From Girardia tigrina (lineage: Eukaryota): a stretch of 53,441 bases of DNA. Shown one piece after another: positions 39,001 to 42,000 of the stretch (position 1 is its first letter; each line of letters opens with the position of its first letter). The stretch lies in assembly GCA_001938485.1 (NCBI GenBank), contig MQRK01178215.1, forward strand, positions 1 to 53,441. The letters run 5' to 3'. The position numbers are program-made.

Positions 39001-42000
39001 AGAATGGAGAAAATCCTTCCTAACGTCCCAAGGAAATTGGTATAAGACCTCTAAAACGAATGGATGGTTAAAGCGACATTTATTGATCGATCACTGAACC
39101 CATGGCAGTACCAGTAGTACTAGTTTTTTACAAAATAACGTAGATGAAGGATGTACAGAATCTTTGAACTCAATCGCGACACATGATATGTTAGTGTCCT
39201 TCAATGGTACTGCGGGGATGAACTCAGGAGTGATTCCAAGAGTGGTTCTCGACGTTTGGTTAAGTAATACCACTGATGTGGGGATATTTCGGAGTCCTTT
39301 TATTCATTGTACGAAATTTGTTTATACAGACAAAGCTCTACAGAATCACGTAACGAGAGATCATGATTGGTCCTTTCTGACTGGGAAACCGAAGCGTGCC
39401 CTTGCACTGAAAGCATGCATTCTTATATCTAAAGCCGTGCGCGAATGTAGTAGGCTATGTATTGTCTATTTATGGTTTCTCCCCGATACAGAGTATATGG
39501 CTTACTACCCTGTCCGCCAATACTGGAACTGTAGTCTCTACAATACTCAATTATCTGTCCAGTCGAGGGAAGCATATAACTGTAAAAGAAAAAAAACATT
39601 TATTTTTCACATAATAAAAATTAATATGAATTGTAAAAAATTGTGAAAGTTTGAAACTCAGGACTTTGTTATTCTTTTTTATTTCATTTAATATTACGAT
39701 TATTATTGCTAAATTAAGTATCAATTAGAAAAATTTTTTTACCGACACAACGCGGCTTAATTATTAACGGTACTTTTAGAAAAGGAACTACTTATCCGTT
39801 GCATTGAAAACCGATTAGCACAAAGAAATTATGAAGAGTTAGTTGAAATTTTCAATTCGGCAAATAATTTATAATTTTTTAATTTTAAATTTTAACAAAA
39901 ATTAAATAATTATGTAAAAAAATTAAATCTTAAAGGTTTGCATTGAATAAAGTCGATATATTTTCAAAGTAAAATAATTAGTCAAATAAGAATTTTTTAA
40001 TAAATAATAAACTGGGTAAACACTTTATAATTTAGAACAAAATTATTTTGAAAGAAATTAAAATTAAGTTAAATATTTTTACAAAATAATTTGTAAGAAA
40101 TTAAAGCTTCGTATTAATAAAATTTAATTATTCGATTTATAACTAAAATAAATTTTAAAATTAACAAGTTTGAATAAATAAAAATTTCAAAAAAGTATAG
40201 AACAGGGGTCGCAACTTATGGCACGCGTGTCACACGTGGCACGCAGCCTGAAACCAATTTAATTGTTGATTAGAAAGCAAATTGTAGAAATCAAATTATC
40301 TTTAAATTAAATATTAAATTTTATATATTAAAATTTAAAAATTGAAATTAAAATATTAACTTCAATATCAATATTTATTTTAGAATTTTAATATTAAATA
40401 ATGTTAATTTAAAATTCATTTATTTTAAAAATATTGAAATAAAATTATTTTTTTAAATTTTGTAGGAAAATATGGAAGAGTTGCCAAACAAAAGGAAACA
40501 TTATCAACGCCTGTTTCCGAATTTTCCGGAAGAAGGGAGCATCTGGGCCCATACAGATGCACTGAGAGAGTCGATAATGTCTTTCATCGCACTCGGGCGT
40601 TTTTCATTCATCAAATTGTCGTACTGATTAATGAAAAATCCCTTCGAACTTCAGGATACACAAAACGCATTCCATTTCTGATTTATAATATCGATTTTGT
40701 TTTCTTTCACACAACACAGTGAGACCGTATCGTTCAAAACCACCAAAAACGACTCTTTCTCATTTGGATGCCACCGCAAATCGACAAACTGCCTCTCGTT
40801 ATTCGGTTTATATTCACAAAAATTCGATTCTCCACTCTCCAGCAGAGATCTCTCGACACGGAACAACCCGACAGTCGCATATCGACCATCATCGGTCACC
40901 AAGGCGACCAGCAGAATCGATCCACCGCAACTGAGCTCGATCCAGGTGACACTCAACCGGAATTTTATAGAGAAAATTGGATCGAAACTCATGAGCCCGT
41001 CCCTCAAGTCGACCGATTCAATACTCGTTCTCTCGCACGAGGAGACACTGCAGAAATCCACATCGTTGTCGGCGATCGACGCCAGTAATCCGGCCCGACA
41101 ATCGATTGCATTATATCGGATGTTTTTCGTGCATTTAGTGGATGACAGTTTGAATGGATGAAGCGTTTGAAAATTAACGTTCATCGAATTCGATTTGTCA
41201 TTAAATCTTTCGAATCTTTCATAGAATCCTTTAACCATTTCAGTATCGATTTTCGAATTGATTGATTCACATTTCGCTTTGTAAAAACCAATCTTATTGG
41301 AACAATTCTCTATTCTCCGATCACACAGAAACACTGCGCCGTTTATTTGATTATTTCTATTCAAATTTCGATCTAAAATCGATTCGAGTTTGATAATATC
41401 GACGAGAAGAATCGGCGCATCAAAAGTCGCATCATTTAAAGTTTTTGTAATTTTAAAATTTGCGGTCTTTTTTAACATCGCGATTAGCATAATTCAGCAT
41501 CCAGAAAGAAATTAACTCTTTAATTAATTCAAAACGATATTCAGTCACGTATCGAATTTATTTTCATCAATGAAAATCATTATCGTTTTCACAAGTTCAT
41601 CAATTTAATTCAACAAAACAAAACTCAAGGTCATTTCACACTATCAATTTTCAATAACTAAAAAATCAAAATTACAATTCAAGTTGTTCAAGTTCCATCG
41701 AATAATTTCAAAATTACAAAAAATAATGAATTAATTTTCCATTTCAATTTGATTTGATTTTCTCCAATTTGAAACGAATATATAACAATGATAATAATTA
41801 ATTTAAAAAAAACAAAATATAATAATTAAAATGTTCGAATCCCGAACAACGCCCATTTCAAGAAAATTGGACAAATGAATATGAATTTGTAGAGCAGAGT
41901 GATTGTGCTGTTTGTGCTTTCTGTTGCGAAATTGTTGTGTGTGGCACATCGAGTGTACAAAGACACTTTTAAACTAAACAACAATCTAAGTTTAAAATCT

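What the first reader, a model, noticed from the sequence alone, without database searches (positions are those of the whole stretch)
40512..41848. TG..CA integrase-type cassette carrying a Nup214-like nucleoporin fragment, nested in a hAT transposon
Seen: a 1337-bp insert with TGTT/AACA termini and perfect ACGCC duplication splits the hAT transposase start. It contains an 840-bp open frame but no gag, pol or transposase. Residues ~100-279 and the read-through beyond the TGA match recalled Nup214 propeller motifs (LSC, DxxWxP, CxSWSxKG, QY..L.EK). The first ~100 aa look unrelated, so the ORF may be chimeric. Known: TG..CA with a 5-bp TSD is the signature of LTR-retroelement or Ginger-type integrases. 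Inference: a Pack-type solo LTR or non-autonomous element that captured host gene pieces. A truncated Nup214 propeller (the DDX19-binding domain) could affect RNA export, but this is speculative.
Basis: partly seen in the sequence, partly recalled or inferred. Interest (0 to 1): 0.78.

Follow-up and report, generated by a model that had tools for sequence, protein, structure and literature searches.

The report
LTR-like insert inside dead hAT transposon
A 1.3-kb mobile-DNA insertion with long-terminal-repeat-type ends sits inside a decayed hAT transposon and carries an orphan open frame that shows no detectable kinship to the nucleoporin Nup214, so it is an ordinary nested transposon with an unexplained passenger.

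Summary
The physical observation holds. A 1337-bp block (40512-41848) starts TGTT and ends AACA. It is flanked by a perfect 5-bp duplication (ACGCC). It interrupts the first codons of a decayed hAT transposon (40203-43651) that has its own 8-bp duplication. The block carries a long minus-strand open frame and no gag, pol or transposase domain.

The Nup214 reading does not hold. Pfam, two searches of solved structures and an exhaustive HMMER pass over 1.84 billion proteins returned no nucleoporin. They returned only a few short orphan relatives, which are other copies of the same sequence. A language-model lookup places the C-terminal half near assorted beta-propeller clusters, which is a lead only. 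Both structure predictions failed (pLDDT 28 and 31).

My best reading is a solo LTR, or LTR-derived unit, of an uncharacterised retrotransposon family. It would have been placed by an integrase making a 5-bp staggered cut. Its frame is family-specific and damaged in this copy (1 stop, 1 in-frame deletion).

A Ginger-type membership fails: there are no terminal inverted repeats beyond 4 nt and no TGTNR ends.

No eukaryotic DNA collection was available, so three things remain open: copy number, paired-LTR context and the origin of the frame. This is a low-interest finding, a new member of a known kind.

The parts
40195..40202 (.). Left copy of the 8-bp target duplication (GTATAGAA) of the host hAT element
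   Evidence: Read from the sequence printed; the same 8 bases recur at 43652-43659
40203..40511 (+). Left piece of the hAT element: left terminal inverted repeat (starts CAGGGGTCGC), AT-rich leader, and a 13-codon ATG-started piece that abuts the insert
   Evidence: The 13-codon piece is too short for BLASTP
40507..40511 (.). Left copy of the 5-bp target duplication ACGCC of the insert
40512..41848 (.). The 1337-bp insert: TGTT...AACA ends, no longer terminal inverted repeat, no internal direct terminal repeats, single copy in the window
40512..41490 (-). Coding-like frame of the insert, given as one part. It runs from the ATG at 41490 to the left terminus, is 40.7% GC, and is damaged in this copy: 1 in-frame stop and 1 in-frame deletion of 18 codons relative to its relatives
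   Evidence: P0001 residues 1-318 align over 41490-40507
41491..41848 (-). AT-rich (22.3% GC) non-coding part of the insert, holding TATA-like and poly(A)-signal-like words on both strands
41832..41848 (.). Terminal 17-nt hairpin (6-bp stem, 5-nt loop) at the right end of the insert
   Evidence: -5.1 kcal/mol, z -4.1, 1 of 200 shuffles folds as well. The left-end hairpin is not unusual (29 of 200)
41849..41853 (.). Right copy of the 5-bp target duplication ACGCC
41849..43651 (+). Right piece of the hAT element: decayed transposase remains and the right terminal inverted repeat. Against P0010 there are 8 in-frame stops and 4 frame changes, and 521 of 618 residues are covered
   Evidence: The hAT dimerisation domain is weak in the window (18.7 bits, cut-off 21.4)
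43652..43659 (.). Right copy of the 8-bp hAT target duplication (GTATAGAA)
   Evidence: Read from the sequence printed

Best explanation
The block is a mobile-element insertion made by a retroviral-type (DDE) integrase that cuts its target with a 5-bp stagger. It is most likely a solo long terminal repeat (LTR), the remnant left when the two LTRs of an uncharacterised retrotransposon recombined and the internal part was lost. It landed in the first codons of a hAT transposon, which today is dead.

About three quarters of the block is a coding-like frame, and about one quarter is AT-rich and promoter-like. The frame belongs to a small, lineage-restricted family of unknown origin. Its N-terminal part looks like coiled coil and its C-terminal half is predicted to be rich in beta strands. 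It is not a detectable relative of Nup214, and in this copy it is damaged.

What is shown: the insertion, its ends, its duplication, the hAT context, the existence of other copies, and the absence of nucleoporin hits. What is inferred: the integrase mechanism, the solo-LTR history, and the view that the block is now inert.
For: - Ends and duplication: TGTT...AACA and a perfect ACGCC duplication. TGTT/AACA is the core of the LTR end motif 5'-TGTTRNR...YNYAACA-3' reported for animal Metaviridae and retroviral LTRs (PMC3601003, abstract and passages).
- Not a terminal-inverted-repeat transposon: only 4 nt of inverted termini and 8 of the first 20 positions matching. The best local arm alignment scores 18, and 42 of 500 shuffles do as well.
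- Not a miniature paired-LTR element: no internal direct terminal repeats (score 22).
- True insertion: the hAT relative P0010 runs straight through the junction. The right piece starts at its residue 11, and 10 residues are left for the 13-codon left piece.
- Other copies elsewhere: P0001/P0002 (74% and 72% identity, E 2e-125 and 9e-97), P0003 (85%) and P0006.
- Shared boundary: homology with P0001 stops within 5 nt of the left terminus and P0001 then continues into unrelated sequence. So at least two loci share this boundary.
- Coding-like frame: 0 of 2000 shuffles reach its length. It is 40.7% GC against 22.3% for the rest of the block. All length differences with P0001 keep the frame.
Against: - No copy flanking gag-pol, no primer-binding site and no polypurine tract could be looked for. 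No eukaryotic DNA collection was on hand.
- The extended end motif is not met beyond TGTT/AACA on either strand.
- TATA-like and poly(A)-like words occur on both strands and do not orient a U3-R-U5 layout.
- A frame of more than 300 codons that fills most of an LTR and runs off its end is unusual for LTRs.
- Only about 4 loci of the family are visible in protein databases. This is few for a retrotransposon LTR, although repeat masking before annotation could explain it.
- The frame's third-position GC (0.46) is well above that of the neighbouring kinase frame (0.32). This is unexplained.
Confidence: 0.5

Rival explanations
1. A non-autonomous cut-and-paste DNA transposon of the Ginger/TDD kind, moved as a whole by an integrase-related transposase supplied in trans.
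For: TG..CA ends and a 5-bp target duplication. TDD-4 and TDD-5 of Dictyostelium make 5-bp duplications, and Ginger ends resemble Gypsy LTR ends (PMC2836005, passages).
Against: - Ginger1 has terminal inverted repeats of 40-270 bp and Ginger2 of 50-180 bp. This block has 4 nt.
- The TGTNR end pattern is not met on either end: position 5 is T on the left and C on the right arm.
- Metazoan Ginger elements make 4-bp duplications, in CCGG/CCGT or RTATAY targets. Here the duplication is 5 bp and reads ACGCC.
- The window carries animal-type transposons: Mos1-type mariner, Tc1-like and hAT pieces.
Confidence: 0.1
2. The frame is a captured fragment of the host Nup214 beta-propeller carried by the element.
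For: - The language-model lookup of residues 100-279 lists beta-propeller clusters at 0.89-0.94. Two of them are nucleoporin propeller types: Nup133 N-terminal (0.91) and Nup120/160 (0.90).
- Both low-confidence models predict mostly beta strands in this half.
Against: - Pfam found 0 families at E up to 10 for P0001, for the C-terminal 179 residues, and for the 46-residue piece beyond the stop.
- The PDB holds Nup214 and Nup159 propellers (recalled). It gave only DNA polymerase III beta (E 0.33-0.35) and cardiolipin hydrolase (E 0.83-0.85).
- The exhaustive HMMER pass gave 8 proteins at E up to 0.001 out of 1.84 billion, none longer than 311 aa and none a nucleoporin.
- The lookup's top hits are DUF7899 and a bacterial fucose lectin. 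Nup214 itself is not listed, and scores of 0.9 or more occur for 4-10 in 100 shuffled proteins by the tool's own statement.
- No internal blade repeat is detectable: 109 of 300 shuffles reach the observed score.
Confidence: 0.04
3. The element is LTR-type or similar, but the frame is a mosaic of pieces captured from other host genes: a coiled-coil gene plus an unidentified beta-rich gene. That would make it Pack-like.
For: - The N-terminal and C-terminal parts have different distributions. P0005 and P0007 share only residues of about 30-90 (E 2.7e-9 and 4.2e-5), and P0003 and P0006 share only the N-terminus.
- The frame has no stop of its own before the terminus in P0001 and runs off the end, as a fragment would.
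- About 180-230 residues is too short for a whole propeller (general knowledge).
Against: - No parent gene was found for either part. All relatives are short (87-398 aa), unnamed and without a Pfam family.
- A search with P0007 for longer proteins found none among 783 candidates.
- P0003 and P0006 may simply be broken copies of the same frame.
Confidence: 0.2
4. The frame is not a gene at all: an open stretch in a GC-richer repeat, called as protein in a few assemblies.
For: - Long open stretches also exist on the opposite strand of the same region (159, 121 and 81 codons).
- GC is nearly even over codon positions (0.40, 0.35, 0.46).
- There is no Pfam family and no confident fold.
- This copy carries a stop and a deletion.
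Against: - 0 of 2000 shuffles reach the frame's length.
- At 74-85% amino-acid identity, three independent copies keep the same frame, with only in-frame length differences. Both the database proteins and this window were noticed because of the open frame, which biases this argument.
- Distant relatives at 33-36% identity exist.
Confidence: 0.15

Closest known systems
Solo LTRs of Metaviridae (Gypsy), BEL/Pao and Copia retrotransposons
   Same: TG..CA ends with the TGTT/AACA core, a 5-bp target duplication, no terminal inverted repeat, a size within the LTR range, an AT-rich segment with TATA-like and poly(A)-like words, and nesting in another transposon.
   Different: Most of the unit is one long conserved open frame that runs off the end. 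The extended end motif TGTTRNR/YNYAACA is not met. No paired copy or internal gag-pol region is known.
Ginger1 and Ginger2/TDD DNA transposons (PMC2836005)
   Same: Integrase-type TG..CA ends. TDD-4 and TDD-5 make 5-bp duplications.
   Different: No 40-270-bp terminal inverted repeats, no TGTNR ends, no integrase-like transposase, and a different target sequence.
LTR retrotransposons that carry extra open frames, such as the bdelloid rotifer families with varied ORF3 (PMC5408684, abstract seen); MMTV sag in the LTR (recalled, no call)
   Same: A retroelement-type unit that carries a frame unrelated to gag or pol.
   Different: In rotifers the extra frames lie in the internal region and encode recognisable enzymes or envelope-like proteins. 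Here the frame lies within the LTR-like unit itself and is an orphan.
Nup214/Nup159 N-terminal beta-propeller
   Same: At most a beta-rich, propeller-like character suggested by a language-model lookup.
   Different: No sequence hit in Pfam, PDB or the exhaustive search. The fold could not be tested (pLDDT 28 and 31).
hAT transposons with an N-terminal zinc finger, DUF4371 and a hAT dimerisation domain (the host element)
   Same: 8-bp target duplication and CAGGGGTCGC-type inverted ends. There is 69-79% identity to 618-620-aa transposases over the 197-residue query, and P0010 itself carries these domains.
   Different: This copy is dead: 8 stops, 4 frame changes, missing residues and the nested insert.

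Membership tests
LTR of an LTR retrotransposon (solo LTR) | 5'-TG...CA-3' ends forming short inverted repeats | tested here: met
   TGTT...AACA, 4 nt inverted. The extended motif TGTTRNR/YNYAACA is met only in its TGTT/AACA core.
LTR of an LTR retrotransposon (solo LTR) | Target duplication of 4-6 bp | tested here: met
   Perfect 5-bp ACGCC on both sides. 2 of 46,839 positions show such flanks with TG..CA by chance.
LTR of an LTR retrotransposon (solo LTR) | Elsewhere in the genome, two direct copies flank an interior with a primer-binding site, gag-pol and a polypurine tract | not testable with these tools
   No eukaryotic DNA collection was on hand. No second copy exists in the window. The prokaryote genome scan found none.
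LTR of an LTR retrotransposon (solo LTR) | U3-R-U5 layout with a TATA box and poly(A) signal in one orientation | tested here: inconclusive
   TATA-like and A[AT]TAAA words occur on both strands in the AT-rich part. No transcript data were available.
LTR of an LTR retrotransposon (solo LTR) | Copies at different loci share the same boundaries | tested here: inconclusive
   At the left terminus, homology with P0001 ends within 5 nt and P0001's flank differs. The right terminus is non-coding and could not be compared.
Ginger DNA transposons | Terminal inverted repeats of about 40-270 bp | tested here: not met
   Only 4 nt. 12 of the first 40 positions match, and 42 of 500 shuffles equal the best arm alignment.
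Ginger DNA transposons | Ends follow TGTNR | tested here: not met
   TGTTT on the left and TGTTC on the right arm.
Ginger DNA transposons | 4-bp duplication in metazoa (5 bp in TDD-4/5) | tested here: inconclusive
   The duplication is 5 bp. That fits only the Dictyostelium TDD elements.
Nup214/Nup159 N-terminal propeller | Significant sequence similarity to Nup214/Nup159 or a nucleoporin family model | tested here: not met
   No nucleoporin in Pfam, in PDB at E up to 10, or among 8 hits of the 1.84-billion-protein search. No Nup214 comparator could be fetched by name.
Nup214/Nup159 N-terminal propeller | Seven-bladed beta-propeller fold | tested here: inconclusive
   The models are unusable (pLDDT 28.2 and 31.5), so no fold search was run. 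The lookup gives only propeller-like leads. No internal repeat was found.
Pack-type (gene-fragment-carrying) element | Interior made of pieces traceable to identifiable host genes | tested here: not met
   No parent gene was found for either part.
Pack-type (gene-fragment-carrying) element | Ends shared with an autonomous partner element | not testable with these tools
   This needs the source genome.
hAT superfamily (host element) | 8-bp target duplication and short terminal inverted repeats | tested here: met
   GTATAGAA on both sides. The arms are CAGGGGTCGC.. and its near-complement.
hAT superfamily (host element) | Transposase with a hAT C-terminal dimerisation domain | tested here: met
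   Relatives at 69-79% identity are pre-annotated with PF05699, and P0010 scores 35.8 bits against it. The window's own remnant scores 18.7 bits, below the 21.4 cut-off.

The most novel reading that the evidence does not exclude
The 1.3-kb unit is a self-contained, integrase-mobilised cassette. On this reading its conserved frame (coiled coil plus a partial propeller-like domain) is kept by selection because its product acts on the host, for example as a decoy of a propeller-containing complex such as the nuclear pore. That would make it a gene-carrying LTR-type element of a sort not described in animals.
Probability: 0.06. Interest if true: 0.65.

Novelty: new member of a known kind. Interest (0 to 1): 0.25.

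Why it matters
As it stands this is a routine nested-transposon annotation. It dates the insert as younger than a dead hAT copy, and it removes an attractive but unsupported nucleoporin story. The one point of wider interest is that an LTR-like unit is mostly filled by a conserved orphan frame. If genome-wide copies showed that this frame is under selection, it would be a rare case of a retroelement terminal repeat carrying its own gene.

Tried and rejected
- Nup214 identity: rejected after Pfam, PDB phmmer and profile searches and the exhaustive HMMER search.
- Structure route: two AlphaFold runs, on P0001 with alignment A1 and on the C-terminal 179 residues with A3. Both gave pLDDT 28.2 and 31.5. 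No fold search was run on them, because such models give meaningless matches.
- Parent of the N-terminal part: a search with P0007 for longer proteins found none among 783 candidates. The language-model lookup of P0007 gave a best score of 0.79.
- Terminal inverted repeats or internal LTR pair: none.
- Intron of the hAT gene: rejected, because there are no GT..AG bounds and there is a duplicated target.
- Processed retrocopy made by a LINE: rejected, because there is no poly(A) or simple-repeat tail at either end.
- tRNA-derived SINE, prompted by a TTCGAATCC-like word at the right end: ARAGORN found 0 genes and Rfam 0 families in the whole window.
- Alternative genetic codes: a TGA-only stop code gives 117 long open stretches everywhere and is uninformative. 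TGA-as-sense codes give 27. The standard code was kept.
- Internal blade repeats: none.
- Prokaryote genome scan: 87 pattern matches, 0 confirmed.
- Cluster membership of P0001 and P0002 could not be looked up.
- Literature: 0 papers for 'ORF within the LTR' plus 'LTR retrotransposon'. 0 papers for Nup214 plus 'transposable element' plus 'gene capture'.
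Full report
**Setting**

The window is AT-rich, with 6-42% GC per kb. It holds four N runs, which I left alone. It is crowded with decayed transposons:
- a hAT dimerisation remnant at 2266-2523
- reverse-transcriptase pieces at 4660-6380 (minus) and 14292-15294
- Tc1-like pieces at 10214-12353
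- a CCHC zinc knuckle at 31936-32358 (minus)
- a weak GIY-YIG match at 47547-47999
- a Mos1-type mariner at 52190-53238 (minus)

A protein-kinase open frame lies at 37805-38569. Nothing in the window looked human, and the transposon set is of an animal type. ARAGORN found no tRNA gene and Rfam no RNA family in the window.

**The observation**

The block 40512-41848 is 1337 bp, begins TGTT and ends AACA. It is flanked by ACGCC at 40507-40511 and 41849-41853.
- Identical 5-bp flanks at this spacing occur at 135 of 46,839 positions. Together with TG..CA ends they occur at 2 of 46,839, one of which is the block itself.
- The inverted match of the ends is only 4 nt. It covers 8 of the first 20 and 12 of the first 40 positions, and 42 of 500 shuffles equal the best local arm alignment.
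- There are no direct terminal repeats inside the block.
- There is no second copy in the window. A self-BLASTN gave only the self-hit and AT-rich matches of 68 nt or less. Pattern searches for each end found 1 match each.

**The host element**

A hAT transposon spans 40203-43651. It has GTATAGAA duplicated at 40195-40202 and 43652-43659, and inverted ends of the CAGGGGTCGC type.
- Its 197-residue open stretch finds four 537-620-aa proteins at 69-79% identity (E 9e-96 to 5e-80). All are annotated with the hAT dimerisation family.
- P0010 scores for Dimer_Tnp_hAT, DUF4371 and an N-terminal zinc finger.
- Against P0010 the window copy has 8 in-frame stops and 4 frame changes, and covers 521 of 618 residues. 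It is long dead.

I compared the pieces on either side of the insert separately.
- The 40 codons at 41850-41969 align to P0010 residues 11-50 (33 of 40 identical, E 4e-22).
- The 13-codon ATG-started piece at 40472-40510 is too short to align. It sits where the 10 missing N-terminal residues belong.

So the block is a true insertion in the first codons of the transposase. It is not an intron, because it lacks GT..AG bounds and has a duplicated target.

**The frame**

The minus-strand open frame is real. Between its ATG at 41490 and the left terminus at 40512 the same frame contains one stop in all.
- It is much longer than chance allows: 0 of 2000 shuffles reach it.
- The frame region is 40.7% GC, against 22.3% for the remaining 358 nt.
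- Third-position GC is 0.46, against 0.32 in the neighbouring kinase frame.

I built no spliced model and searched no joined version. The frame was searched as it stands, and the pieces on either side of the stop were searched separately.

**Relatives**

The word-indexed search found 2 proteins among 755 candidates: P0001 (398 aa, 74% identity) and P0002 (307 aa, 72%). The two are 99% identical to each other. P0002 looks like another model of the same locus.

The exhaustive HMMER pass over 1.84 billion representatives found 8 proteins at E up to 0.001.
- P0002, P0003 (136 aa) and P0006 (87 aa) are further copies or fragments of the same frame.
- P0005 and P0007 share only residues of about 30-90.
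- P0009 is a weak match to a tandem-repeat protein (E 8.4e-4).
- P0004 (a sideroflexin) and P0008 (MAP65-like) match only the tail of P0001, which is a different repeated stretch.

Identity to the window frame is 79% for P0001, 85% for P0003, 51% for P0006, 36% for P0005 and 33% for P0007.

P0001 aligns over 41490-40507. Homology therefore ends within 5 nt of the left terminus, and P0001 then continues into unrelated sequence. The same boundary thus occurs in at least two different contexts, as expected of a mobile unit.

Relative to its relatives the window copy has:
- 1 in-frame stop where P0001 reads on
- 1 in-frame deletion of 18 codons, against 5 of 5 relatives that cover that part
- 1 further in-frame length difference with P0001
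- no frameshift

**Nup214**

No test supports it.
- Pfam gave one sub-threshold hit for the frame and none for P0001.
- Pfam gave none at E up to 10 for P0001, for the C-terminal 179 residues, or for the 46 residues beyond the stop.
- PDB searches at E up to 10 returned only DNA polymerase III beta for P0001 and a cardiolipin hydrolase for the profile. Both are chance-level.
- The exhaustive search returned no protein longer than 311 aa and no nucleoporin.
- The two structure predictions were unusable (pLDDT 28.2 and 31.5). They predict mostly beta strands in the C-terminal half. I ran no fold search on them.
- The language-model lookup of residues 100-279 listed beta-propeller-type clusters at 0.89-0.94: DUF7899, a bacterial fucose lectin, Nup133 N-terminal, Nup120/160, WDR11 and APC4 WD40. 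That is a lead towards 'propeller-like', not towards Nup214. By the tool's own figures such scores arise for some shuffled proteins.
- No internal repeat is detectable (109 of 300 shuffles).
- No Nup214 comparator could be fetched, since no tool returned one.

**What it is**

TG..CA ends, a 5-bp duplication, no terminal inverted repeat and no transposition gene fit a solo LTR best.
- The TGTT/AACA core matches the conserved end motif of animal Metaviridae and retroviral LTRs, but the extended motif does not match (PMC3601003, abstract and passages).
- Ginger membership fails on its defining features: 40-270-bp inverted repeats, TGTNR ends, and a 4-bp duplication in metazoa (PMC2836005, passages).
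- The orientation of a U3-R-U5 layout cannot be set from TATA-like and poly(A)-like words alone.
- The right end forms a small hairpin that few shuffles match (1 of 200). The left-end hairpin is not unusual (29 of 200).

**Likely history and mechanism (inferred)**

A retrotransposon integrated into the hAT copy by an integrase making a 5-bp staggered cut. Its two LTRs later recombined, leaving one. The remnant is inert, and its frame is damaged.

Three things remain unexplained:
- Why an LTR-like unit should be mostly one conserved orphan frame that runs off its end.
- Whether the frame's two parts have separate origins.
- Its high third-position GC.

**What stayed unchecked**

So I could not examine copy number, paired-LTR context, the native Nup214 locus, or synonymous against non-synonymous change.
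- The scan of prokaryote genomes found nothing: 87 pattern matches, 0 confirmed.
- Cluster membership of P0001 and P0002 could not be looked up.
- Literature searches for frames within LTRs and for Nup214 capture by transposons found no papers. These cover only the held open-access library. No supplementary files were consulted.

**Verdict**

The structural observation is sound and the Nup214 interpretation is unsupported. The finding is an ordinary nested transposon, a probable solo LTR of an undescribed family, carrying an orphan frame. It is a new member of a known kind and of low interest.

Noticed in passing
window 4660-6380 (minus) and 14292-16179 (plus): Reverse-transcriptase pieces (RVT_1, best E 2.2e-23). 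In the second stretch they are followed by C2H2 zinc fingers. These are decayed retroelement stretches, described only.
   Followed up: partly
window 31572-32358 (minus): A CCHC zinc-knuckle piece (E 1.2e-8) lies just upstream of a piece matching the ARM repeat of USP9X-type deubiquitinases (E 1.1e-9). This is either a host exon next to a gag remnant or a captured fragment.
   Followed up: no
window 37805-38569 (minus): An uninterrupted 254-codon frame covers most of a protein kinase domain (Pkinase E 1.4e-38, profile positions 39-263 of 263). It is the only host-gene-like frame near the finding.
   Followed up: no
window 2266-2523 (plus): A second, separate hAT dimerisation-domain remnant (25.8 bits, above the cut-off).
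   Followed up: no
window 10214-12353 (plus); 21635-21952 (minus); 52190-53238 (minus): Tc1/Sleeping-Beauty-type and Mos1-type mariner transposase remnants (HTH_SB, DDE_3, Transposase_1, HTH_48).
   Followed up: no
window 47013-47999 (plus): Two adjacent open stretches. The second has a weak GIY-YIG match (E 0.042, below the cut-off). This could be a Penelope-like remnant, but that is unproven.
   Followed up: no
proteins P0001, P0002, P0004, P0008 (not in the window): A proline- and arginine-rich stretch of roughly 30-40 residues is shared by the tails of P0001 and P0002, a sideroflexin-like protein and a MAP65-like protein. It is either another repeat of the source organism or an artefact at contig ends. 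It is absent from the window.
   Followed up: partly
window 41832-41848: The right end of the insert is a perfect 6-bp-stem hairpin that includes the terminal AACA (z -4.1; 1 of 200 shuffles). Its meaning is unknown.
   Followed up: partly
window 240-1176, 25352-25479, 25966-26564, 35381-35554: Four runs of N. Long 'ORFs' listed across them by the ORF tool are artefacts. They were left untouched.
   Followed up: no
window 40654-41490 (minus): Third-position GC of the insert's frame (0.46) is well above that of the kinase (0.32) and hAT (0.32) frames nearby. The insert is therefore not at the compositional equilibrium of its surroundings.
   Followed up: partly
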